64,000 bases of DNA from an uncultured virus (IMG/VR IMGVR_UViG_3300025011_000039). Its lineage: Duplodnaviria > Heunggongvirae > Uroviricota > Caudoviricetes. Positions 31,015 through 45,785 of this stretch are shown here, piece after piece. The notes under the pieces are model-generated. The model was not told the DNA's origin, ran no database searches, and saw nothing but the letters and a program-made list of their open reading frames with translations. Positions within the stretch are counted from its first letter, which is position 1, and each line of letters starts with the position of its first letter. The stretch is taken from IMG/VR virus record IMGVR_UViG_3300025011_000039; one strand, given 5' to 3'. Both the position numbers and the translations under genes were made by a program.

Positions 31015-31090
31015 TGTGGAGTAACTCAGTTGGTAGAGTGGTTGACTGTTAATCAACTTGTCGTAGGTTCGAGACCTACCTTCACAGCCA
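31015..31090 (+). tRNA. tRNA-Asn (GTT)
   Basis: 76-nt cloverleaf: acceptor TGTGGAG/CTTCACA, anticodon arm GTTGA-CTGTTAA-TCAAC, GTTCGA T-loop, encoded CCA. Confidence 0.95.
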
Positions 31091-31210: not shown

Positions 31211-31435
31211 TTATTGTAGTTTAACCGCTTTGTCGGTATCTTTATTCGTTTCCGCACCGACTAAGTTGCTGTAGAATCTACCGCCAGTCGCTAATCCTAT
31301 GCTTGTACCGAAGATGAATATTAGTTCTTTTATGTTGTCTAGTGGTTTGCCGATTAGACACGTATATAGATATGTAGTCAGGCAAATAGCCATGCACCCA
31401 GCAAAAAACCAGTCCATCTTAGTAAATTCTTTCAT
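31211..31435 (-). CDS. putative holin
   Basis: 74 aa with two hydrophobic segments, directly after the endolysin. Confidence 0.6.
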   Translation of the reverse strand: MKEFTKMDWFFAGCMAICLTTYLYTCLIGKPLDNIKELIFIFGTSIGLATGGRFYSNLVGAETNKDTDKAVKLQ

Positions 31436-32109
31436 TTTATCATCCCCTTATCCAACATTTTGCATATAATAGCGGCCATTTGCTCACGGGTTAATGCCGC
31501 CTCCGGATTAAAGTATCCATCTCCGCCGCCTACCATCAAGCCAAGTTCCTTGACTCTAGCGATATGTCCAGCACTCCACCTATCCCCGGCAACGTCAGGG
31601 AATGGACCAGGAACAGTCCGTAAGTCAGTAAATAACCTATCCCATGGAAACGCCTGACCCGGACAATTGGGACGGTTAACGCTGTCAATGCGGTAATGTC
31701 CGATGATGTGATCCTTATCTATGGGAATACCATGCTTAGCGATTAACTGCTTATGTAGTCGGAGAGTTGCTTGATATTGTTCCTCGGTCAAATTTCCATC
31801 ACCACCGGCACCAGTATATCCTTCATGCTCAATACCGATAGTATAGTTGTTGGGATTGGTACCGTCGTATACTGGCCAATTAGGTTTATTTACTGCCCCG
31901 GCGTGCCATGCTTTGTTTTCATCAGCAACTAACTGATATATTTCTCCGGCACGGGTAATAACATAATGTGCGCTTGCTTGAGACTGAGGATTGCATAGCC
32001 AGTCACGACACCCGGGAAACGCCCCCGAAGTGATATGATCGACAATGGCAATAATCTTGCTGCCCTGTCTGCTGCTAAAATTCTTACTCAGTTTTTGTTT
32101 TATTTCCAT
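31432..32109 (-). CDS. endolysin: N-acetylmuramoyl-L-alanine amidase (Amidase_2) with C-terminal SLH domain
   Basis: IVDHIT, SAHYVI, AWHAG, IGIEHEG, IIGH...CPG; FPDV..RWSA...GLMVG...FNPEAALTREQMA. Confidence 0.93.
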   Translation of the reverse strand: MEIKQKLSKNFSSRQGSKIIAIVDHITSGAFPGCRDWLCNPQSQASAHYVITRAGEIYQLVADENKAWHAGAVNKPNWPVYDGTNPNNYTIGIEHEGYTGAGGDGNLTEEQYQATLRLHKQLIAKHGIPIDKDHIIGHYRIDSVNRPNCPGQAFPWDRLFTDLRTVPGPFPDVAGDRWSAGHIARVKELGLMVGGGDGYFNPEAALTREQMAAIICKMLDKGMIK

Positions 32110-33459: not shown

Positions 33460-34338
33460 TCAAACCTCCTGACCGGCACCAGACTTACTGTTAAGAAAGT
33501 CATTGATCGCATTAAGGACCTTTGGTTTCCAAAGTATCTGAAATCCTTCCCACTTATTATTAGCGGCATCCTGCATCATTCCGTATTCTTTGCCCTTTTC
33601 GGTCAATTTCCATGGGTTTCGCTTTACCAATCTTTCAGTCCCAGGTTTCTTACCTGCTTCTCTTATGCCGTATTGAAAACCCATTTCCTCTAGTAGTAAA
33701 TTAACTGCGCTGGATTTCATGTCTAACTGCTCACCTATTTGACTAGCGGTTAAAATCTCGGCATCTTCTTCGCTGACAGCAGGTAAAAGTTTGCGGTAGT
33801 CGGTTAGCTGTCTGCCTGTTTCCTTCTCAGTTCTGGCAATGGCAACTGCAACCGCACGTTCCGGTCTAATACCTATTGCCTTGGCAAATTCTTTAGCGAA
33901 TCTTATTTCTGCCATTGCTTCACGATCCCATGTCGGCATCCGGCGGCGAAGCGACTTCGATTTATGTAAAAATGCTTCTGCTAAAACGTCCTTCGCCTTT
34001 AATTGGTATTCGACAAGTCTGTTCTGCACTTCTTCGCTCTCAATGATATTGGCATTAATTTTAGCCAACCATATCGGGAGAAAGTCTAACTCTAGAACTA
34101 AAATATCTTGATTTCCCCCGGCAGTAAGGGTGGAGATTTTACGCCCCCCTTTAGAAAGTACAATATCGCTATTAATTTTGTCTCTCTGTGCTTTGGTTTG
34201 GTTTTCTTTAAGGCCTAAACCATCACACACCCAACTAACTCCCACGTAAACTTTATCGTCACTGGCCTTAACCGCCATAATCTCAGCACCATTAAAGTTA
34301 ACAAGTTTCTGCTCTACCGGAATAAGTTGATTGTTCAT
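33460..34338 (-). CDS. phage antirepressor (P22_AR N-terminal + KilAC/ANT-like C-terminal)
   Basis: VNFNGAEI...VYVGVSWVCDGLGL; LTASQIG..L...S..VN.LL...GFQY...WKLTEKGKEYG. Confidence 0.85.
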   Translation of the reverse strand: MNNQLIPVEQKLVNFNGAEIMAVKASDDKVYVGVSWVCDGLGLKENQTKAQRDKINSDIVLSKGGRKISTLTAGGNQDILVLELDFLPIWLAKINANIIESEEVQNRLVEYQLKAKDVLAEAFLHKSKSLRRRMPTWDREAMAEIRFAKEFAKAIGIRPERAVAVAIARTEKETGRQLTDYRKLLPAVSEEDAEILTASQIGEQLDMKSSAVNLLLEEMGFQYGIREAGKKPGTERLVKRNPWKLTEKGKEYGMMQDAANNKWEGFQILWKPKVLNAINDFLNSKSGAGQEV

Positions 34339-34619
34339 GCCATACCTCCCACTATCTTATTCAAGCGCAACCCATCCCTCATGCCCTGCTCATATGCTAA
34401 ACGAGTTTCGCAAATCTGCCTGTAGGAATAAGCATCAAGTAATTGTGTAAGTAATCCCCGATTATCTGGACTCAATAATTGACTAACCCGATTACTTGCA
34501 ATTTTTAGCTTGTCCATCACCTCGACATACTCAGTATCCTTCTGTCGCGCCGATACGATTGCATCACTCGCCCGGTCAGCGCATAACTCCGCAAAACTGT
34601 CCTTGAAACTTTTTTCCAT
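34335..34619 (-). CDS. helical hypothetical protein (DUF6809-like)
   Basis: AYEQGMRDG motif; co-transcribed with the antirepressor. Confidence 0.55.
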   Translation of the reverse strand: MEKSFKDSFAELCADRASDAIVSARQKDTEYVEVMDKLKIASNRVSQLLSPDNRGLLTQLLDAYSYRQICETRLAYEQGMRDGLRLNKIVGGMA

Positions 34620-34672
34620 CTTTCTACCTCCCCGTATTTAACTTCTATATATATGCTTTAACCTCTAAGGTT

Positions 34673-34701
34673 ATTATATATCTTTATAAATTTCATGTCA
34701 A
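34673..34701 (-). promoter_or_regulatory. consensus sigmaA promoter TTGACA-17-TATAAT
   Basis: Exact consensus on the minus strand upstream of the 34619 ORF. Confidence 0.75.
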
Positions 34702-34787
34702 TAGCTTTAGGAGTTATTTTGAAATTTAATATTGCAATTCGATAACTCTTAGTGTTATACTGTATGCGGTAGGAGGTGTAAAATGCA

Positions 34788-34997
34788 ATGATGATAATAA
34801 AAGTATCAGATATGATGGGTAAAAGAAAAATAACAATGAAACAATTATCCATTATGACAGGAATTAGGCCAAATACAGTAAGTCAGTTATGGCACGGTAC
34901 TTCTAGGAGAATAGAGATAGAGCAGATCAGCAAGTTGTGTCAAGTCCTCAAATGTCAGCCAGGAGATTTATTTGAATATGTGCCGGAAGAGAAATAA
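34788..34997 (+). CDS. Cro/C1-type (HTH_26) regulator
   Basis: MKQLSIMTGIRPNTVSQL...ISKLCQVLKCQPGDLFEY. Confidence 0.88.
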   Translation: MMIIKVSDMMGKRKITMKQLSIMTGIRPNTVSQLWHGTSRRIEIEQISKLCQVLKCQPGDLFEYVPEEK

Positions 34998-35026
34998 CCA
35001 CTTCATATGAAGTGGTTATTTCTCTT
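34987..35026. terminator. perfect 40-bp palindrome, probable bidirectional terminator
   Basis: AAGAGAAATAACCACTTCAT|ATGAAGTGGTTATTTCTCTT between the converging HTH gene and the repeat-RNA locus. Confidence 0.75.
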
Positions 35027-35030
35027 ATTA

Positions 35031-35115
35031 CCCTTGCCTTAACTAGCCAATCCGAACCAAACCACTCCGGAACTTTCCATGCCCCTACGTTCCGTTCCAG
35101 TCCAGACCTTTCCAT
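35031..35115 (-). ncRNA. pentanucleotide-periodic (NN-GGH) guide-like RNA tract A, 17 units (VIPR vrRNA-like)
   Basis: Minus strand: at-gga aa-ggt ct-gga ct-gga ac-gga ac-gta gg-ggc at-gga aa-gtt cc-gga gt-ggt tt-ggt tc-gga tt-ggc ta-gtt aa-ggc aa-ggg. Confidence 0.75.
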
Positions 35116-35179
35116 GTTAGCCCATCTTGTCAACTACAGGAGGCTAACCTGTAGGACTACCCCGAAGGGTAGTTTCGAA

Positions 35180-35274
35180 TCCTTACCATTTCATTGCGCA
35201 CCTTAACGTGCCATGCCTCAGCTCTCCGTACCACTCCGGACCGCAACTCACCATTCCGCTTCGTTCCCGACCTG
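35180..35274 (-). ncRNA. pentanucleotide-periodic (NN-GGH) guide-like RNA tract B, 19 units (VIPR vrRNA-like)
   Basis: Minus strand: ca-ggt cg-gga ac-gaa gc-gga at-ggt ga-gtt gc-ggt cc-gga gt-ggt ac-gga ga-gct ga-ggc at-ggc ac-gtt aa-ggt gc-gca at-gaa at-ggt aa-gga. Confidence 0.75.
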
Positions 35275-35291
35275 ATTAATTATACAGTATA

Positions 35292-35582
35292 TTAATCACC
35301 CCAAACCAACTCACGCCAATTCGGAGGAATAATACCATCTTTAAGTGCCTTGCTAATCATCCCTCTATGTCGCCCATCCTCACGCAAAACATGACAGCAA
35401 CGACATAGAGTTCTAAGATTGCTTAACTTATTTGTTCCTAACTTACCAGAACGAATATGATCTATGTGACATTTATCTAAGTCAACTAGTTTGCCACAGT
35501 GCTTACATTTACCCTTATCTCGTTCCCAGACTATTGTTCTTAGTTTTTGCCATATTTCTTTAGGAGGTCTTTTCCTCGGCAT
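35292..35582 (-). CDS. HNH endonuclease
   Basis: WERDKGKCKHCG...HIDHI...N..SNLRTLCRCCH; AGGAGG RBS; overlaps the end of the RAMP gene. Confidence 0.9.
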   Translation of the reverse strand: MPRKRPPKEIWQKLRTIVWERDKGKCKHCGKLVDLDKCHIDHIRSGKLGTNKLSNLRTLCRCCHVLREDGRHRGMISKALKDGIIPPNWRELVWGD

Positions 35583-36192
35583 TATCTTCCTCCTGTATTT
35601 CAAAAGATAATACATCAAATCTTCCATATCCAACAGAACGACCATCGCCAATGCCGGACAATTTACCTGCATCAATAATAGCAGAGTGCATCTCTTGGCG
35701 ACTAACAACCGTTTTATCGAACATTATTGAAAATTTACACTCCCATCCGGGGCAAGTAGCAACGCGATAACGAATGTTTCTAGACTTGGTTGACGGATTA
35801 CGTACTGAGCGAACGTCAATATAAACCAATTCTTCGTCAGCATTATAATACTTATGCGGTTTTTCGTGAATATCTTCCGGTAAATTACGATTAACCAATA
35901 CCTTATCATCAAGTACCTGCAATGTTGCTGATACCAAACTTTGAATTGAGCCTTTGCCCTTCTTAATGAACTTAGCGCCTGCAATGTATGTTCCGAAGAA
36001 ATAAGAACCAGGTAAATATAACTGTCCACTCTTGGTTGCTACATATGTTTTGCGCCATTCCTCCGGATCGTGTCCGGCAACTCCTGTCCTCTCTTGTTTT
36101 TCAAGTGGCAAAGAATCAGGACCAAATACATGCCACAACAGAGGTCTAATTCCTTTTATTTCGATTGTTGCCGTTAGAATGTTTTTGCCCAT
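35560..36192 (-). CDS. stand-alone Cas7/RAMP-like protein (Vipr-like)
   Basis: N-terminal strand TIEIKGIRPLL, LYLPGSYFFG (compare Csm3/Cmr YIPGSSLKG) and C-terminal Gly-rich loop GIGDGRSVGYGRFDV. Confidence 0.75.
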   Translation of the reverse strand: MGKNILTATIEIKGIRPLLWHVFGPDSLPLEKQERTGVAGHDPEEWRKTYVATKSGQLYLPGSYFFGTYIAGAKFIKKGKGSIQSLVSATLQVLDDKVLVNRNLPEDIHEKPHKYYNADEELVYIDVRSVRNPSTKSRNIRYRVATCPGWECKFSIMFDKTVVSRQEMHSAIIDAGKLSGIGDGRSVGYGRFDVLSFEIQEEDNAEEKTS

Positions 36193-36952: not shown

Positions 36953-39900
36953 TTATTGTTGTCTAAGCACTATCCCATTGCCCTTATTCCTAAAGCCAAT
37001 ACCCCTTTGTTGTAATACAAATTTTCTGCCCTCTAGTCCGGCTTTACCTAAAGCATCGATCATCCTGCGTATCTTTTTGTCATCACTAGCATTTTGCGGT
37101 ATTCTGGAAAATTCTTTTAGTGTTCTTTCTCCAACAATCCTTTGCATATCGCTATATTCTTTGGCAGTTAGTTCTATTTTTTGCCCACTAATAGTAAATG
37201 ACTTAGATGCAACTCTAGGTAGTTGCTTTGTTTCTCCGGTATTTCTAAATGTTTCTATGGCCAACTTCGCTTCTTCTGGAACTTTGTATTTCGATGTAAA
37301 TGCTGGATTAAAGAATACATTGAAAGCATCATTACCTCCATCTTGATATATTTCCTTCGGTTTTCCGAAAGTATCATATGCGACAGGCAAGTTGCCAGCA
37401 ATTCCCGGTATTTTGCCTTTAACTTTATTTTTCGATTCCTCTACCCATGAGGGGTCATATGTTGAGCGAGTTGTATTGTCTATATACTGTCTTACTTGAT
37501 TAGCTAATGTTGGTGCAAAACTAGAGGGAATATTTTTAACTGTATTGGTTACATTTTCTCCCATATCATATCCTTGTACTGCCCGTGTAAGACCTTGCAA
37601 AACAGGTTGCTCGGCAACTGTATTTAAAGCACCTTCAAGACTACCAGCAATAGTTGAGGATATATTATCTAGTTTGCCTTGTCCATCATTAAGGTTTTTG
37701 CTGATATTTGCGCCTATGCTTAGTGCCATTGCAATTGGCTGCGCCCAATCATAGTTAATTATTTTATCACCAGCAATAGGTTGCGCAGTATCTTTATTAA
37801 AACCGCTTTGCACCCACCTAGATAATGCGCTTAGATTTATACGATATTGTCCTTGCCCTGTCTGTCGCTGTAAATCTCTTAGGTCTTTATCTTTTTCTAT
37901 TGAACCTGTTATAATTCCTTGATCGGCAAGAAAATAACCTAATCCAGTTAATCCTGCTGTGCCAGTTATGGCCCTTGATAACGCAAGTGTTGTTTCTCTT
38001 TGACTAGGATTGCCCTTAAATATACCTGTTACTTTTGCTAGTTCGTAGGCAGACTTTAGAAAGCCAGCAGGCGAGTATTCTAATCCTCTTGCTATTAAAG
38101 CCCCCGGTGTGCGTGGGAATTTAAGAATAACACTCCCTACACCCCAATCCTGATTTATGTTTAAGGCATCCTTTACTCCTTGTAGTCCACGAGAAATAAC
38201 ATTGTTATCTTGAAATGTAACATATTTTCCATATTGGTCAGCAATATTCAGGACATTATCCTCAATATCTTTCATAAACCCCTGTACTATAGTCTTATCA
38301 GCTTTTCCAGTAGTATTTATAGCCTTTAAGGTAGCTAGTTCTCCAATAGTGTTATTTTTTGCCCTGGTATATGCCGCAAAATCAAAACCTTTCAAGGCTG
38401 CACCTAGAGTTCTTTCAAGATAAGCCATAGTTTTTTCAGCAAAATCAAATGTGCCACCAACAACTTTCCCAGTTGTCGTATTTGCGTTTTTAGCTCTTTC
38501 GGGATTAATATTAAATGCCGGTGATCGACCCAAGTCGTATTGTGTCTGTATACCTTCTGGGTTAACACCTTTCCAACCAGCTTTTGCGCCCTTGAAAAAT
38601 CCCTGCCAGTAACCACCTTGCCCAGCCGTTCTAAATGTTACCTGGCGGTCTGCTCCGGTCAGTTTACTAACTGTCCAGTCAATAGGTGTAGCAACTATTT
38701 TATTTAACCTTTCTAGGCGATAAAACATTTCATTGCCAACTGTGTTCCTAATTAAAGTTTTAGGATTTAATAACATCGAAATGGTTTGCGCCGAATCTAT
38801 TTTTCTAAGTATCCCAGAAGGTTTTAGAGAATTCAGTGCTCCCTGTAATTCTTGACCTGCCTCCAATCTGGCATTTTCATCGGTTGCATTTTTAAGTCTA
38901 TTGGCAAGTTCCTTTAGTATTTTAGCCATTTCGGGAGTTAATTCAATGTCCTTACCGAATTTTTTACCGCTGTTAAGTTTATTTATTTGTCGTTGTGCAA
39001 AAACTAAAATACCATCAGGTTTTAGTGCCCCCATAATTCTAGCGGCACTAATTTCTTGACCAACTTTCGTTAGTCTCTCTGCCATAGCTAGCGAAACATC
39101 TATGGCCCTCTCGTAATTACCGGCGTTTTGGTATTTTTCAATTAAACGAATACCTGTTGCTGTTTTAAGTGCAGAAGGTTCTTCTCCTTCAAGAACAAAG
39201 CGAGTAGCCTTTTCTATGTTCTGGGAAATTAAATTTTGTGCTTCAACGTCTACCTCACGTAGTTTTATGGGGCTATATGCCCCTAGTCCTCCTGGATACA
39301 TTTCCATAATATTGGCTATTTTAACGTCCGGAGAAGCTATTTCAGAATTAGCAACGGAAACATTAAACGACCTGACTTTTTCGTCAGTACCGGGGAGAGT
39401 TGATTGCTTTTCCGGTACGGTTAACCTTGCCGCCCCAATCGTCCCTTCGTCATAAGTTTCCGCTTTTTCCGGTTTTAGTCCGATATCCTCTGCCATGACT
39501 TTAGTTTCCGATGTAGACTTACTTCCTACTTCTGCGGATAACTCAGGATAGTCCTTTAATACTTCGGGAGGTGCTGGTTTGTCCTGCCCAGACTTAAATC
39601 TAAGTATCTTGTCTTGCGTTACAGAATCAAGTTTACTTGCCTTATCTAAATCATCCTTAATAGCAACCTTATTTCTATCTAAGACGATCCAGTTATCTTG
39701 CAATCCTTCCGCATAATGAACCGAATCGTATTTACCTTTTTTAAGCGCATTAAGCATGATAGGAAGGTTTTCACCACGGAATAGACCAAATACTTGACCG
39801 CTATTCTGTTCCATTTCATCAATACCAAGTCTATTTATAAATTCGTTAAACTGCTTATCATCTAGCTTAATTCCTAAGTCGTTTAATAGGTTATCTACTT

Positions 39901-41929
39901 CGTCTAAACTTATTAGACCATTCTCATACTTAGTCAAGTCAAAAGTATTGTCAAATTTTCCTTTTAACTCATACACGGTTGGGTTATAGCCTTCTGGCTT
40001 CTCTCCAAATAATATTTCAGACTTACCTTCGAGTTGCTTAGCATAAGACAGGGCATTTTCTTTTTGACTTGTAATGTAAAGGAGATTGTTTTCTTCTGCT
40101 ATCTTACTTATTTCTTCGTCATTTTTTATCTGCTTCCTAAGTTTATCAATCTCCTTTTGATAATTACCAATCCAATAGTTAGAATTCTCTATTTCCATTT
40201 TAGCATTGTCGCGTTTACCGTAATCCTTAAGCGGATCAGTAGTATCAAGAATTTCCTGTGCCTTTTCCTTTATATTTTCTTGTCTTGCTATGTTTGCTTC
40301 ATGCTTCTTGATTAGATTATCAGGAGTCCAATTAAGAACATCTTCTATGCTTTTTTGACGGATAATATTATTTTTCTTACCTTTTGCTCCCTCTGGAACC
40401 ATTTCCCCACGATAAAATACCTGTCCGTCATTAACCATATTTCTATATGATGTTATTGCCTTTCGAGCATCCTCGAGGGAATTGAATCCAGAATCCTTGA
40501 CTAACTTATCTATCGACTGTTGCTGTTCTGCTGTTAATTTAACAGGTTCGCCTGTTAATTGCGGCAATATTTCCTGCGCGACAATTGGTTCCTGCTTGAC
40601 TGATACATCAGGTATATTTTCGTCAGCAAAAGTCTCGGCACCACTTCTGTTATTTAGTCGCGGAACATCGCTAATAACGGGTTGCTGTTTAATCTCAGGA
40701 GTCGTAGTCTCCGGCACTTCCGGCATTGCCTCACTCACAACCTCCGGAACTTCTGTCTTAACCTCCGGAACCTTAACGACTTTACGACCAATACTAACCG
40801 TCTTTCCATCAACATCAACTTGAATAATCATCTTGTCCGCTGTTTTAACTATTGCTTCTTTTCCATTTGGCAGAATAACTGTATCGCCTTGCTGTAGTCT
40901 AAAGTGCGGAAACTCGCTTTCAAGTTCCGGGAATTCGTTTAGTATCTGATTGGCCTTTTCGACATTCAGCGTATTTCTAAGCGTTCTCTGCGCCGCCGCT
41001 ACCTCTTTAGTGGTGACTGTCTCAGGAGTTATCATCTCCCCAAGACTTGACTTACTCCTGAAATTAGCCAGTTCCTCCGGCGTAAAATCTGACATATCCG
41101 GTTCTTTATACTCAGGCATCTTAAAATCAGTAGTTTTGGGCGGTGTATTGCGTTTGCTTAAGGCACTCCCTGCACCATGTAATAGCATAGCCAGGGCAGC
41201 ATTAGACAAGCCTGCCTCTGCCGCTTCTCCCGGTTTAAATTCACGGTCGTTCAGTGCCGCTACGGTTGCTTCATACGGGACTGTCGCCCCGCCAATCTTA
41301 GCACCTGTTTGCAATATTTTAGGCAAATTTTCAGCTTTGGGGATATACTGCAATCCTTTAGCTATAGCTTTTTCGCTAAGTCCAAATAGTTTTGCCCCTG
41401 CGCTCTCAGGATTAGCACCAAAACCAACAAGTCCACCAACTAAATCGGCAATCATGTCCCTGTTATCATTACCGGTAGAAGTCTTTTCTGGCCTGTCGGT
41501 TAATGTAACGATTTCCCCAGCAGTTTGACTTGAACGATTCATAAATGGATTATCCATGATAGCCTTGAAAGGACTAGCAATCGTCGCTAATCCCCGACTA
41601 ATAGTTGGGTTATTTTCCGCAAACTTTTCGCTTATTCCGTAATCTCCTGGCTTAAATATAGTACCTCCCGGCAACACCCCGCCAAATTTATTATCCAGAG
41701 ATTCATATAGACTTCTTTTAGGTGGCATAGGTACTTTCATTTCCGGTACAGGAGGCATTGTAGTGCTATAATCTACATCTGCCATGCCAGGATCGTTAGT
41801 TATTTGTTGGTTGCTCGAAAAACTAAGCAACCTTCTAATGGCATCTTCCCTGGAAGTATCTCTACTTTGACTGTATGAATTAAAGTTACTATACGGCCCT
41901 TTGTATAAATCGTAGGCCAATAAAATCAC
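36953..41929 (-). CDS. large internal virion / DNA-ejection polyvalent protein with ADP-ribosyltransferase-like domain
   Basis: 1658 aa; last gene of the podovirus structural operon; FYRG...LYITS...A..YA...VYE...FDL...GKYDSV ART-like motifs; likely TTG start at 41920. Confidence 0.7.
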   Translation of the reverse strand: MILLAYDLYKGPYSNFNSYSQSRDTSREDAIRRLLSFSSNQQITNDPGMADVDYSTTMPPVPEMKVPMPPKRSLYESLDNKFGGVLPGGTIFKPGDYGISEKFAENNPTISRGLATIASPFKAIMDNPFMNRSSQTAGEIVTLTDRPEKTSTGNDNRDMIADLVGGLVGFGANPESAGAKLFGLSEKAIAKGLQYIPKAENLPKILQTGAKIGGATVPYEATVAALNDREFKPGEAAEAGLSNAALAMLLHGAGSALSKRNTPPKTTDFKMPEYKEPDMSDFTPEELANFRSKSSLGEMITPETVTTKEVAAAQRTLRNTLNVEKANQILNEFPELESEFPHFRLQQGDTVILPNGKEAIVKTADKMIIQVDVDGKTVSIGRKVVKVPEVKTEVPEVVSEAMPEVPETTTPEIKQQPVISDVPRLNNRSGAETFADENIPDVSVKQEPIVAQEILPQLTGEPVKLTAEQQQSIDKLVKDSGFNSLEDARKAITSYRNMVNDGQVFYRGEMVPEGAKGKKNNIIRQKSIEDVLNWTPDNLIKKHEANIARQENIKEKAQEILDTTDPLKDYGKRDNAKMEIENSNYWIGNYQKEIDKLRKQIKNDEEISKIAEENNLLYITSQKENALSYAKQLEGKSEILFGEKPEGYNPTVYELKGKFDNTFDLTKYENGLISLDEVDNLLNDLGIKLDDKQFNEFINRLGIDEMEQNSGQVFGLFRGENLPIMLNALKKGKYDSVHYAEGLQDNWIVLDRNKVAIKDDLDKASKLDSVTQDKILRFKSGQDKPAPPEVLKDYPELSAEVGSKSTSETKVMAEDIGLKPEKAETYDEGTIGAARLTVPEKQSTLPGTDEKVRSFNVSVANSEIASPDVKIANIMEMYPGGLGAYSPIKLREVDVEAQNLISQNIEKATRFVLEGEEPSALKTATGIRLIEKYQNAGNYERAIDVSLAMAERLTKVGQEISAARIMGALKPDGILVFAQRQINKLNSGKKFGKDIELTPEMAKILKELANRLKNATDENARLEAGQELQGALNSLKPSGILRKIDSAQTISMLLNPKTLIRNTVGNEMFYRLERLNKIVATPIDWTVSKLTGADRQVTFRTAGQGGYWQGFFKGAKAGWKGVNPEGIQTQYDLGRSPAFNINPERAKNANTTTGKVVGGTFDFAEKTMAYLERTLGAALKGFDFAAYTRAKNNTIGELATLKAINTTGKADKTIVQGFMKDIEDNVLNIADQYGKYVTFQDNNVISRGLQGVKDALNINQDWGVGSVILKFPRTPGALIARGLEYSPAGFLKSAYELAKVTGIFKGNPSQRETTLALSRAITGTAGLTGLGYFLADQGIITGSIEKDKDLRDLQRQTGQGQYRINLSALSRWVQSGFNKDTAQPIAGDKIINYDWAQPIAMALSIGANISKNLNDGQGKLDNISSTIAGSLEGALNTVAEQPVLQGLTRAVQGYDMGENVTNTVKNIPSSFAPTLANQVRQYIDNTTRSTYDPSWVEESKNKVKGKIPGIAGNLPVAYDTFGKPKEIYQDGGNDAFNVFFNPAFTSKYKVPEEAKLAIETFRNTGETKQLPRVASKSFTISGQKIELTAKEYSDMQRIVGERTLKEFSRIPQNASDDKKIRRMIDALGKAGLEGRKFVLQQRGIGFRNKGNGIVLRQQ

Positions 41930-44552: not shown

Positions 44553-45785
44553 TCAACCCACTTCCATGTTAAAAGAAATTTCATCTGCAACATTAGCGTC
44601 AAGAGAAATACTCTTAGAAACGCTTAAGATTGAAACAAACTCTTTAACTACCGTGCAATCAAGCGTTATCTCTATTAATGAAATGTCATAAGTATCGTCG
44701 TAAACATTCCTTAGAGTATCGGCAAGAATAGTCTCGTTAACTAAGATAGTGCGTTTTGTACTAACTGAGACTAATTCACTCCTAATGATCTGCCGTAGCG
44801 TATCTATGTTTGCGGTTTGTTCAATACCCTCGATTATCCTCCTAAGAGTATCGGAAAATACTGACTCGGTAACAACGGTTTGGCGTAACATGTCAATTAA
44901 TACTGACTCGGTAACAACGGTTTGGCGTAACATGTCTGCATTTATGGTTTGCATAACTCCTGTAGCGAAAACAAGTAATGCCGGGTAAGACACACCCTCA
45001 TTTATAGACCATATGCTATTAAAATCCCAATTCGCAAAAGTCGCCTGCTGTTTCATTTGCGCTGTAGTTTTGCCGGTTCCTCCACCAGAAGTAGTTTGAC
45101 CGGAGGTTTCCGTATCCCAAAAGCAATTAATTACTGAACCGCTATACGTATATCCAATCAATCCTCCGCAATAATTAGCCGCTAATCCAGTAACGACTCC
45201 TATGGAGTAGCAATTTGATATCGTTCCTGTTGAGTGTCCTCCTATTAATCCCGCACCTTTATTGGGACAATTTACAGCTACGCCAGCAAAACAATCTGTT
45301 ATTGTGCCGCTATTGCTACCAGCTATCCCTCCGGCGTTATAACCGCTATTTAACGCTTTAACATAGCCTCCTACAGCAAAGCACTTCTGTATAGCTCCGT
45401 AATTATTACCAACTATTGCCCCATGATTAAATAATGTTGATCCAATTGCCTCTATTCTTCCGTCAACCATACCTAAATTTTTCACTACTCCACTAGACGA
45501 AACATAACCAAATAAGCCATTATTATCGACACTTCTCTTGACATATAACCCAGTTACTCTATAGCCCTTGCCGTCAAACGAACCGCTAAACTTAGTCGTA
45601 AAATTTCCTATAGGAATGAATCCTGCGCCGCTATTCCAGTTAACCGTATCACTTGCATCAATATTGTTAATAAGTTCATAATAGGTGGTTAGATCATTCC
45701 TTACCGCATCTAGGTCGAGTAAATCCTCAATTAAGTATGGCGTTAACTCAGTTCCGTTACCACCACCAAATAATCCATTAGCCAT
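44553..45785 (-). CDS. GLUG-motif tail/receptor-binding protein
   Basis: FGGGNGT..PYLI, GFIPIG..FSGSFDGKG, GLFG and GGLIG repeats; C-terminal D(T/M)LR repeats. Confidence 0.75.
   Translation of the reverse strand: MANGLFGGGNGTELTPYLIEDLLDLDAVRNDLTTYYELINNIDASDTVNWNSGAGFIPIGNFTTKFSGSFDGKGYRVTGLYVKRSVDNNGLFGYVSSSGVVKNLGMVDGRIEAIGSTLFNHGAIVGNNYGAIQKCFAVGGYVKALNSGYNAGGIAGSNSGTITDCFAGVAVNCPNKGAGLIGGHSTGTISNCYSIGVVTGLAANYCGGLIGYTYSGSVINCFWDTETSGQTTSGGGTGKTTAQMKQQATFANWDFNSIWSINEGVSYPALLVFATGVMQTINADMLRQTVVTESVLIDMLRQTVVTESVFSDTLRRIIEGIEQTANIDTLRQIIRSELVSVSTKRTILVNETILADTLRNVYDDTYDISLIEITLDCTVVKEFVSILSVSKSISLDANVADEISFNMEVG
44857..44936. repeat. 42-nt-period tandem duplication in the tail gene
   Basis: AATACTGACTCGGTAACAACGGTTTGGCGTAACATGTC at 44857 and 44899 (DMLRQTVVTESV x2). 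Confidence 0.85.

What the first reader, a model, noticed from the sequence alone, without database searches (positions are those of the whole stretch)
35180..35274. Tract B: 19 pentamer units with an invariant G and variable dinucleotides, a readable gapped code
Seen: all 19 units carry G at the same phase and 13 of 19 carry GG, while the NN positions vary freely, unlike a degenerate microsatellite. RNA-sense NN string: CA CG AC GC AU GA GC CC GU AC GA GA AU AC AA GC AU AU AA. A TATAAT (minus strand, 35279-35284) sits just upstream, so the tract may have its own start. Inference: if one target base is skipped per unit, the complementary DNA strand reads TTn ATn ATn GCn TTn GTn ATn TCn TCn GTn ACn GGn GCn TCn ATn GCn GTn CGn TG. 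With the skip on the codon wobble position this encodes [FL][IM][IM]A[FL]V[IM]SSVTGAS[IM]AVR, a hydrophobic membrane- or signal-like peptide. This may be coincidence.
Basis: partly seen in the sequence, partly recalled or inferred. Interest (0 to 1): 0.85.

Follow-up and report, generated by a model that had tools for sequence, protein, structure and literature searches.

The report
Phage VIPR guide RNA, already described
The five-base repeat tract is one of two guide RNAs of a phage VIPR system, a CRISPR-like RNA-guided DNA recognition system first described in 2026 preprints, and its variable letters point at a giant gene of rival phages.

Summary
On the minus strand, 35275..35181 is 19 NNNGG units (G at position 4 in 19 of 19, GG in 13 of 19). 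A second tract lies at 35126..35032, past a 54-nt hammerhead-like element.

This is a VIPR locus, a kind already in print (bioRxiv 10.64898/2026.04.26.720920). The 210-aa gene just upstream matches the solved SUSP1 Vipr protein (E 7.4e-9) and its model resembles Cas7/Csm3. An HNH gene sits beside vipr in 36 of 38 related viral loci. Across relatives GG is fixed, the next base is mostly a pyrimidine, and the two NN bases are random.

Guide B matches two viral contigs at 31 of 32 positions over units 1-16, inside a >1000-aa ORF homologous to this phage's own 1658-aa gene; the phage's own copy matches 12 of 38. Guide A matches LPD38 "polyvalent protein" genes (27 of 28 at best). Backward-read control patterns found nothing.

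The real target encodes QRTAIDAPVTDDMTKA. Expression, ribozyme cleavage and HNH function are untested.

Verdict: a new member of a known kind, of modest interest.

The parts
36953..41929 (-). 1658-aa giant protein gene just upstream of the VIPR locus. It is this phage's own homologue of the gene that guide B is predicted to hit in rival phages.
   Evidence: No Pfam or PHROG match. BLASTP to the L043 target ORF gives E 3e-45. At the homologous site the window encodes NVSVANSEIASPDVKI, and guide B matches it at only 12 of 38 positions.
35560..36192 (-). vipr gene: a 210-aa single-RRM RAMP protein with the G-rich loop GIGDGRSVGYGRF.
   Evidence: A profile of 27 homologues hits PDB 36pp_D 'SUSP1 Vipr protein' at E 7.4e-9. 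The AF2 model (pLDDT 68.9) gives Csm3/Cas7 chains as top Foldseek hits, E about 5e-6. PADLOC gives weak Cas6/Csm4 matches. PHROG phrog_4652 matches at 2e-13. At least 1293 homologues were found.
35292..35582 (-). 96-aa HNH endonuclease gene, the likely vipr-accessory (vap) gene of this clade.
   Evidence: Pfam HNH at 3.7e-6 on the longer ORF. PHROG HNH families down to 1.6e-11. A homologue lies just downstream of vipr in 36 of 38 related viral loci (tblastn).
35279..35284 (-). TATAAT, a possible -10 element for the guide transcript.
   Evidence: Read directly. Not listed by the promoter scan because it has no -35. Relatives carry TATAA-like motifs at the same place. Function untested.
35181..35275 (-). 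vrRNA-B repeat tract (the finding): 19 units of H-N-N-G-G. Units 1-16 (35275..35196) are the predicted guide. Units 17-19 (35195..35181) do not pair with the target and resemble the conserved last units of relatives.
   Evidence: 31 of 32 over units 1-16, 1 of 6 over units 17-19.
35127..35180 (-). Hammerhead-like separator: GAAA (35176..35173), stem III hairpin with UUCG loop (35173..35156), C17 at 35155, stem I hairpin (35154..35134), and core UUGACAA (35133..35127) in place of CUGANGA. Predicted cut between 35155 and 35154.
   Evidence: The MFE fold gives the two 7-bp hairpins. The homologous elements of L001 and L004 score 36.3 and 35.8 bits on Rfam Hammerhead_II, against a gathering score of 37. 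The window's copy itself is not reported by Rfam even at E<=10. It is closest to the second hammerhead of L015.
35032..35126 (-). vrRNA-A tract: 19 units in register. The first two (GATGG GCTAA) are a leader shared with L015. Units 3-16 (35116..35047) are the predicted guide. Units 17-19 are the conserved end (CTAGT TAAGG CAAGG).
   Evidence: 27 of 28 over units 3-16 against L048.
34987..35026 (.). 18-bp hairpin that can act as a terminator in both directions. It closes the guide transcript on the minus strand and the HTH gene 34788..34997 on the plus strand.
   Evidence: Folds. Weak Rfam terminator-like matches on both strands. The simple terminator scan did not list it.

Best explanation
Tract B is the guide portion of a vrRNA of a phage-encoded VIPR (Viral Interference Programmable Repeat) system. 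The locus reads, on the minus strand: vipr (RAMP protein), HNH accessory gene, vrRNA-B, a hammerhead-like ribozyme, vrRNA-A, terminator. The mechanism below is inferred by homology to the published SUSP1 system. One Vipr protomer binds each five-base unit. It sequesters GG and the following base and presents the two NN bases. The NN dinucleotides pair with double-stranded DNA in which every third base is skipped, so the guide reads codon positions 1-2 and ignores the wobble. What is shown here is the following. Under that rule guide B matches a >1000-aa ORF of two rival phage contigs, at the point where that gene stops resembling this phage's own 1658-aa gene. Guide A matches giant LPD38 'polyvalent protein' genes of other phages. 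The likely role is inter-phage competition: silencing, or with the HNH partner perhaps cutting, a rival phage's giant gene while sparing self. The central ribozyme is inferred to cut the transcript into the two guide RNAs.
For: (1) Protein. A profile of the 210-aa protein and 26 homologues hits the solved SUSP1 Vipr protein at E 7.4e-9 over residues 9-192. The model's best structural matches are Csm3/Cas7 RAMPs. By my reading of the alignment against the residues named, SUSP1 H17, R138, D177 and R179 correspond to H21, R143, D183 and R185 here. R143 and R185 are invariant in 27 sequences.

(2) RNA. There are 19 + 19 pentamer units on the vipr strand, directly downstream. 29 of 38 related viral loci carry such tracts on the vipr strand. 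Over 883 units from 22 loci, position 1 is C or T in 83%, positions 2-3 are near random, and positions 4-5 are G in 94% and 82% (positions 4-5 were part of the selection rule).

(3) Hypervariability. The window and L023 are 90.2% identical over 920 nt of vipr and HNH. Similarity stops about 13 nt before the tract, and NN agree in only 5 and 7 of 19 units.

(4) Targets. A 10-unit seed of guide B found 3 viral contigs. In L043 and L045, 11 of the 12 further positions in units 1, 2 and 13-16 also match. By my arithmetic this has a chance of about 2e-6 at p=0.25. The skip base is the wobble of a long ORF, and the two contigs differ from each other at skip bases only. Guide A seeds found 6 contigs, best 31 of 38. 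Backward-read control patterns found 0 and 0. In a local all-against-all test the real guides scored 29, 25, 24 and 24, against a control maximum of 15.

(5) Sister phage. The first guide of L023 matches the same L045 gene at 28 of 30 positions over 15 units, starting at the codon where guide B ends. Its second guide matches the L046 polyvalent gene at 25 of 34.

(6) No self target was found in the window.

(7) The literature describes exactly this kind, including hammerhead-interspersed arrays, NNNGG variants and HNH accessory proteins.
Against: There are no expression data, since no RNA run holds the stretch. RNA ends, ribozyme cleavage and RNP formation are therefore unshown. The putative promoter has no -35. 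The base after GG is A in 7 of 19 units of tract B, although the SUSP1 pocket is said to exclude purines. The residue aligned to SUSP1 W178, which stacks on the second G, is an invariant Gly here. The window's ribozyme core deviates from the consensus (UUGACAA) and Rfam does not report it. Guide A's hits fall on a conserved protein motif (MK.LTTGINPVFS), so part of that match reflects codon-level conservation among homologues, and no perfect target was found. The longer patterns found nothing in metagenome or genome collections. The single genome hit, a 69% GC Polyangiaceae MAG, does not extend beyond the seed (24 of 38) and is at chance level. Skip lengths 0, 2 and 3 were tested only on locally held DNA, not on the collections. 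The AF2 model is of moderate confidence (pLDDT 68.9).
Confidence: 0.88

Rival explanations
1. The assignment as a VIPR guide is the same, but the outcome differs: the conserved HNH partner is recruited to the bound site and the rival DNA is cut, not merely silenced.
For: An HNH homologue lies next to vipr in 36 of 38 related loci. The preprint states that some VIPR types carry predicted nucleases and proposes target destruction for them.
Against: No contact between the HNH protein and Vipr was tested. The only experimentally characterised VIPRs act by repression. Small HNH genes are also common as free-standing homing or packaging genes in phages (PHROG hits). The preprint links nuclease types to host defence islands, whereas all loci here are viral contigs.
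Confidence: 0.35
2. The tracts are a protein-binding scaffold or sponge RNA, or a string of two-tier G-quadruplexes, with 5-nt phasing. The NN carry no sequence information.
For: GG every five bases would fit a ring or helical RNA-binding protein, or G2N3 quadruplexes. Positions 2-3 look random.
Against: The NN of two guides in this phage and two in a sister phage match long ORFs of other phages under one fixed spacing rule, with the skip on the wobble. Backward-read controls give nothing. Phase is kept through units that lack GG, which quadruplexes would not require.
Confidence: 0.04
3. The feature acts at DNA level or on the plus strand: a packaging (cos/pac) site beside an HNH gene, or a C-rich Rho-loading site in two halves around a hairpin that stops read-through from the HTH gene.
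For: On the plus strand the tracts are C-rich and G-poor and follow the HTH gene's terminator. HNH genes often accompany terminases.
Against: The terminase lies 24 kb away. In relatives the tracts always lie on the vipr strand and move together with vipr. In L003 the array lies between vipr and the HNH gene. The hammerhead reads only on the minus strand.
Confidence: 0.03

Closest known systems
VIPR systems (Vipr protein + vrRNA), type II of Escherichia phage SUSP1 and the Pseudomonas fulva prophage. Sources: bioRxiv 10.64898/2026.04.26.720920 (Results and parts of Methods read), 10.64898/2026.04.26.720927 (abstract and first part of Results read), 10.64898/2026.10.15.759431 (start of abstract seen in the search listing only).
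   Same: A small single-RRM RAMP protein. Tandem five-base repeats with fixed GG and hypervariable NN on the same strand next to the gene. The one-base-skip code with the skip on the codon wobble. Targets in competing phages. No self target. Phage-encoded, with one small accessory gene.
   Different: The guides are longer: 19 units, 14-16 of them pairing, against 9-16 reported. The base after GG is relaxed (T, A or C; 12 of 19 pyrimidine in tract B). Gly stands at the position of SUSP1 W178. There is no pseudoknot tail; instead the separator is hammerhead-like and the array ends in a terminator hairpin. The accessory gene is an HNH endonuclease rather than a DNA-binding vap1. The predicted targets are giant structural or polyvalent protein genes, not satellites or lysis-lysogeny regulators.
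Hammerhead ribozyme-interspersed vrRNA arrays (legend of fig. S19 of the same preprint, types I and V; the figure itself was not viewable).
   Same: A type II-topology hammerhead sits between adjacent guide tracts. In L001 and L004 the core is canonical (CUGAUGA ... GAAA), scoring 36.3 and 35.8 bits.
   Different: The window's own copy has U3/A8 in place of C3/G8 and C at position 7, and is missed by Rfam. I could not assign this clade to one of the seven published types because the type tables were not readable.
Class 1 CRISPR backbone subunits (Cas7 family: Csm3, Cmr4, type VII Cas7).
   Same: The best structural matches of the model are these proteins. They share the G-rich loop, thumb-mediated periodic base flipping, and filament formation along a guide RNA.
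   Different: The period is five bases, not six. Three guide bases are flipped per unit and only two pair. The guide carries fixed bases within it. There are no CRISPR array, no Cas6, and no large or small subunits.
Natural U3-A8 hammerhead variants of Penelope-like retroelements (PMC4209133, one passage read).
   Same: The covariation U3-A8 replaces C3-G8 in the catalytic core.
   Different: Those are minimal eukaryotic hammerheads. This one is a phage type II-topology element, and its activity is untested.

Membership tests
VIPR system | Vipr protein: a RAMP homologue with RRM core, G-rich loop and thumb | tested here: met
   Profile hit to PDB 36pp_D 'SUSP1 Vipr protein' at E 7.4e-9, covering residues 9-192. 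Foldseek top hits are Csm3/Cas7 at E about 5e-6. The G-loop GIGDGRSVGYGRF is present, with G180, G184, R185, G188, G190, R191 and F192 invariant.
VIPR system | Tandem YNNGG (or NNNGG) repeats, at least 4 units, in the intergenic DNA flanking vipr | tested here: met
   19 + 19 units on the vipr strand, 17 nt after the HNH stop codon. Position 1 is a pyrimidine in 12 of 19 units (tract B), so the form is closer to the published NNNGG/GGH variant.
VIPR system | GG(Y) conserved while NN are hypervariable among relatives | tested here: met
   Over 883 units from 22 loci, information is 0.42, 0.05, 0.02, 1.57 and 1.02 bits at positions 1-5. Window against L023: G4 identical in 19 of 19 units, NN in 5 and 7 of 19, while the flanking genes are 90% identical.
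VIPR system | Targets obey the one-base-skip rule, with the skip mostly on the wobble and no self target | tested here: met
   Guide B: 31 of 32 over units 1-16 in L043 and L045, in frame with a >1009-aa ORF. Guide A: 27 of 28 over units 3-16 in L048. Backward controls gave 0 hits. No self hit above shuffles. Other skip lengths were checked only locally.
VIPR system | A conserved accessory (vap) gene beside vipr | tested here: met
   An HNH homologue lies adjacent in 36 of 38 loci. Whether it equals one of the published vap1-6 could not be checked.
VIPR system | vrRNAs of about 100 nt are expressed and co-purify with Vipr | not testable with these tools
   No RNA run holds the stretch.
Hammerhead ribozyme, type II (Rfam RF02276) | Conserved core CUGANGA ... 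GAAA, scoring at or above the gathering score | tested here: not met
   The window has GAAA but UUGACAA, and there is no Rfam match at E<=10 in a 111-nt search. The homologous elements of L001 and L004 reach 36.3 and 35.8 bits against a gathering score of 37. I therefore call the window's element hammerhead-like, not a confirmed member.
Hammerhead ribozyme, type II (Rfam RF02276) | Three-way junction with stem III and stem I hairpins and an NUH cleavage site between them | tested here: met
   The MFE structure has two 7-bp hairpins separated by C35155 of a GUC triplet. By direct reading, three positions of stem I differ on both sides from L015 HH2 while keeping the pairs.
Hammerhead ribozyme, type II (Rfam RF02276) | Self-cleavage | not testable with these tools
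   No assay and no RNA reads. U3-A8 core variants exist in nature (PMC4209133, passage).

The most novel reading that the evidence does not exclude
The guides are not scattered. In this phage and in its sister (L004/L023, Vipr 96% identical), the first guide of each array hits the same rival gene at abutting sites. Together they cover 30 consecutive codons that begin exactly where the rival's giant gene stops resembling the phage's own giant gene, which lies directly upstream of the VIPR locus. The second guides of both phages hit the same LPD38 polyvalent-gene family at different sites. This may be more than selection for allele-specific sites. It may be a trace of how VIPR guides arise, for instance by a copying process that draws on the rival allele of the neighbouring gene after recombination at the shared flank. 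If so, it bears on the open question of whether VIPR has any form of guide acquisition.
Probability: 0.08. Interest if true: 0.8.

Novelty: new member of a known kind. Interest (0 to 1): 0.3.

Why it matters
The kind is already in print, so this locus does not change the picture. It adds one worked example from an uncultured phage of a low-GC host, in a clade with at least 1293 Vipr homologues. In this example the published one-base-skip code, applied blind, recovers natural targets. It also shows self/non-self discrimination at a mosaic junction of a giant phage gene, a conserved HNH partner in a phage-borne (not defence-island) setting, and a ribozyme separator with a U3-A8 core. These are useful test cases for three questions: how nuclease-linked VIPRs act, which guide units actually pair, and how guides diversify between sister phages.

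Tried and rejected
- **Before the identification.** I considered a TRAP-like (G/U)AG array, a CsrA sponge, G-quadruplex strings, a Rho rut site on the plus strand, and a cos/pac site. All were set aside once the neighbouring protein matched Vipr and the targets appeared.
- **BLAST of the region** (34980-35300) against 50,697 phage records: no match.
- **Rfam.** The 12-kb surround gave only a tRNA and weak terminator-like hits. Twenty related loci at gathering threshold gave nothing.
- **Whole genome.** None is held for this window.
- **Guide B units 8-17 as a seed:** 0 hits. This is explained by unit 17 not pairing with the target.
- **Longer seeds.** A 14-unit guide B seed in genome contigs, a 12-unit guide A seed in metagenome contigs, and a 12-unit guide B seed with CG at unit 2 in metagenome contigs all gave 0 hits.
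- **10-unit guide B seed in genome contigs:** one Polyangiaceae MAG hit that does not extend (24 of 38). I treat it as chance level.
- **Guide A against the full records behind L043-L045,** with up to 3 mismatches: none. The two guides therefore do not hit the same rival records.
- **tblastn of the guide A target ORFs against the window:** no homologue.
- **tblastn of residues 781-960 of the window's giant protein against L001, L003 and L004:** no hit. The sister phage's own allele at the target site could not be read.
- **ARAGORN and folding of the two 47-nt separators of L003:** no tRNA and no fold better than shuffles.
- **Type assignment (I-VII).** The supplementary PDF of PMC13142463 gave only methods text and legends for my search terms. 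Tables and data files were not seen, so they may already list this clade.
- **MAFFT alignment of the five ribozyme elements** was not structure-aware, so no covariance model was built.

Full report
**Observation**

On the minus strand, 35275..35181 parses into 19 five-base units. G is at unit position 4 in all 19, and GG occurs in 13. The phasing is exceptional for this window. For C at period 5 on the plus strand, the best phase fraction in 90-nt windows is 1.0 here, against a mean of 0.348 with sd 0.090.

A sister tract of 19 units in the same register lies at 35126..35032, with G at position 4 in 18 of the 20 units counted. A 54-nt structured spacer separates the two tracts. TATAAT at 35284..35279 on the minus strand is present, but it has no -35 partner and the promoter scan does not list it.

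**Anatomy**

All parts lie on the minus strand, in this order:
- a 1658-aa ORF with no Pfam or PHROG match (36953..41929);
- a 210-aa ORF (35560..36192);
- a 96-aa HNH endonuclease (35292..35582);
- tract B, the spacer, and tract A;
- an 18-bp hairpin (35026..34987) that also closes the convergent HTH gene 34788..34997.

The window is a phage or prophage. It carries a terminase large subunit, portal, major head protein, primase/helicase, an antirepressor and an SLH-domain amidase.

**Identification**

The 210-aa protein ends in GIGDGRSVGYGRF, a RAMP-type glycine-rich loop. It has at least 1293 unannotated homologues. A profile of 27 of them hits one solved chain, 36pp_D 'SUSP1 Vipr protein', at E 7.4e-9 over almost its whole length. 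An AlphaFold2 model (pLDDT 68.9) finds Csm3/Cas7 backbone subunits as its best structural matches, with 123 chains at E<=0.001. PADLOC gives weak Cas6/Csm4 matches.

The name led to three 2026 preprints. I read the Results and several Methods sections of 10.64898/2026.04.26.720920. I read the abstract and the first part of the Results of 10.64898/2026.04.26.720927. For 10.64898/2026.10.15.759431 I saw only the start of the abstract in the search listing.

They describe VIPR systems as follows:
- A Vipr RAMP protein polymerises on vrRNAs made of 9-16 YNNGG repeats.
- It sequesters each GGY and presents NN.
- NN pair with double-stranded DNA in which every third base is skipped, mostly the codon wobble.
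- Natural targets are competing phages and satellites.
- Variants already in print include NNNGG repeats, arrays interspersed with hammerhead ribozymes, and accessory proteins with HNH domains.

The finding is therefore an instance of a kind already in print. This scan has met the kind many times; one search returned 298 notes holding the word VIPR.

**Relatives**

Forty-two related loci were fetched from viral contigs (4, 38; the first four recur in the second set).
- Phased G tracts lie on the vipr strand in 29 of the 38 loci, by my thresholds.
- An HNH homologue lies next to vipr in 36 of the 38. In L003 it lies after the array, not before it. The association is thus with the system, not with a fixed position.
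- After dropping seven duplicate loci, 883 units from 22 loci remain. Position 1 is C (52%) or T (31%). Positions 2 and 3 are close to uniform (0.05 and 0.02 bits). Positions 4 and 5 are G in 94% and 82%, though these two were part of my selection rule.
- The window and L023 share 90.2% DNA identity over vipr and HNH. Similarity ends about 13 nt before the tract, and NN agree in only 5 and 7 of 19 units.

**The spacer**

In L001 and L004 the spacer is a type II-topology hammerhead. It has GAAA and CUGAUGA and scores 36.3 and 35.8 bits on RF02276, just under the gathering score of 37. L015 has two such elements.

The window's spacer has the same layout:
- GAAA;
- a 7-bp stem III with a UUCG loop;
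- GUC;
- a 7-bp stem I with a loop (UUAGCCU) like that of L015's second element;
- a leader GAUGGGCUAAC, also shared with L015.

Its core reads UUGACAA, and Rfam does not report it even at E<=10. The changes at core positions 3 and 8 (C to U, G to A) keep the 3-8 pair. Such U3-A8 variants occur naturally in retroelement hammerheads (PMC4209133, passage read). I call the window's element hammerhead-like. Its predicted cut is between 35155 and 35154, and its activity is unknown.

**Targets**

I kept each unit's NN and joined them with one free base. Ten-unit seeds were then searched in viral contigs.

Guide B, units 3-12, found three contigs.
- In L043 and L045, units 1-16 match at 31 of 32 positions and units 17-19 at 1 of 6.
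- Outside the seed, 11 of 12 positions match. By my arithmetic this has a chance of about 2e-6.
- The site is in frame with an ORF of more than 1009 codons, with the skipped base as the wobble. It encodes QRTAIDAPVTDDMTKA.
- The two contigs differ from each other only at skipped bases within the site.
- The single mismatch is AGA against CG-, both arginine codons.
- The third contig (L044) is a more distant homologue of the same motif (25 of 38).

The target ORF is homologous to the window's own 1658-aa protein (E 3e-45). The two are nearly identical in protein sequence up to ...EKVRSF and diverge exactly at the first target codon. The window's own site (NVSVANSEIASPDVKI) matches the guide at 12 of 38.

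Guide A seeds found six contigs.
- The best (L048) matches units 3-16 at 27 of 28.
- The site encodes MK.LTTGINPVFS within giant ORFs that carry LPD38 and PBECR3 domains of 'polyvalent proteins'.
- This is a conserved motif, so these hits are homologues of a target. None is a perfect target.

Controls were as follows:
- The two productive seeds read backwards gave 0 and 0 contigs.
- Locally, 49 guides were run against all held DNA. The real guides gave top scores of 29, 25, 24 and 24, against 15 for backward guides.
- No self target appears in the window at any skip length, apart from the tracts themselves at skip 3.

**Sister phage**

L023 is the same contig as L004. Its Vipr is 96% identical to the window's, and the contig shares its IMG/VR sample number with L045. 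Its first guide matches L045 at 28 of 30 positions over 15 units, encoding AGLLVDIYAEGPGAY. That site starts at the very codon where guide B ends. Its second guide matches the L046 polyvalent gene at 25 of 34.

Two further VIPR-bearing contigs, L018 and L026, carry guides that match each other's flanks (32 of 42 and 20 of 28).

The gapped, wobble-skipping code is correct. The hydrophobic peptide is not. It is the antisense frame of the real target, open for only about 21 codons between stops. Not all 19 units pair. The last three resemble the conserved terminal units seen in relatives (TAAGG, CAAGG).

**How it most likely works**

Shown here:
- the protein family, the repeat architecture, and the conservation pattern;
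- the association with an HNH gene;
- natural target matches under the one-base-skip rule, and self-sparing.

Inferred from the SUSP1 work:
- one protomer binds per unit, and the protomers form a helical filament;
- GG and the following base are flipped out, and NN pair with DNA;
- an R-loop triplex forms, and transcription is silenced.

Inferred from sequence alone:
- transcription starts near 35272 or reads through from the vipr-HNH operon;
- the ribozyme cuts the transcript into two guides;
- the HNH protein takes part.

Differences from SUSP1 that might matter:
- A follows GG in 7 of 19 units.
- Gly stands at the position of W178.

**Verdict**

This is a genuine VIPR locus. It is a new member of a known kind and of modest interest. 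The natural targets and the abutting guides of two sister phages are the only parts that go slightly beyond what I saw in print.

Noticed in passing
L003:4686-4738 and L003:4822-4874: In the 58%-identical relative, three guide tracts are separated not by hammerheads but by two copies of a conserved ~47-nt element (core GCUAGCC.AG.GGUGCAACUCCG, reminiscent of a tRNA D-arm). Rfam, ARAGORN and folding gave nothing. It may be a tail or processing element of another kind.
   Followed up: partly
L018:3113-3217 and L026:2508-2577: Two VIPR-bearing viral contigs carry guides that match the DNA flanking each other's vipr genes under the one-base-skip rule (32 of 42 and 20 of 28). This suggests reciprocal targeting between VIPR phages. 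The second match is only a little above the control maximum.
   Followed up: partly
window 36953-41929: The 1658-aa protein has no Pfam, PHROG or PADLOC match. It is mosaic with giant ORFs of other phages: 64% identity over one 155-aa block and 43-47% over another. It sits where polyvalent or tail-associated giants often lie, and its function is unknown.
   Followed up: partly
window 34558-34621: Nine consecutive five-base units on the minus strand have G at the same phase, inside the start of the DUF6809 gene (34335..34619). Only two units have GG and the stretch is coding. This is probably chance.
   Followed up: partly
window 33460-34997: Directly downstream of the guide terminator lies an immunity-like module. 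It comprises a Cro/C1-type HTH gene on the plus strand (34788..34997) facing a perfect sigma-70 promoter (TTGACA-17-TATAAT, 34701..34673, minus strand). That promoter drives a DUF6809 gene and a P22-type antirepressor. Whether it is linked to VIPR control was not examined.
   Followed up: no
window 44857-44936: A perfect 42-bp direct repeat (1.9 copies, 100% match) lies within or beside the ORF 44553..45785.
   Followed up: no
window 31015-31087: A tRNA gene (65.2 bits) lies next to the SLH-domain amidase gene (31432..32109). It may be a phage tRNA or an attachment-site remnant.
   Followed up: no
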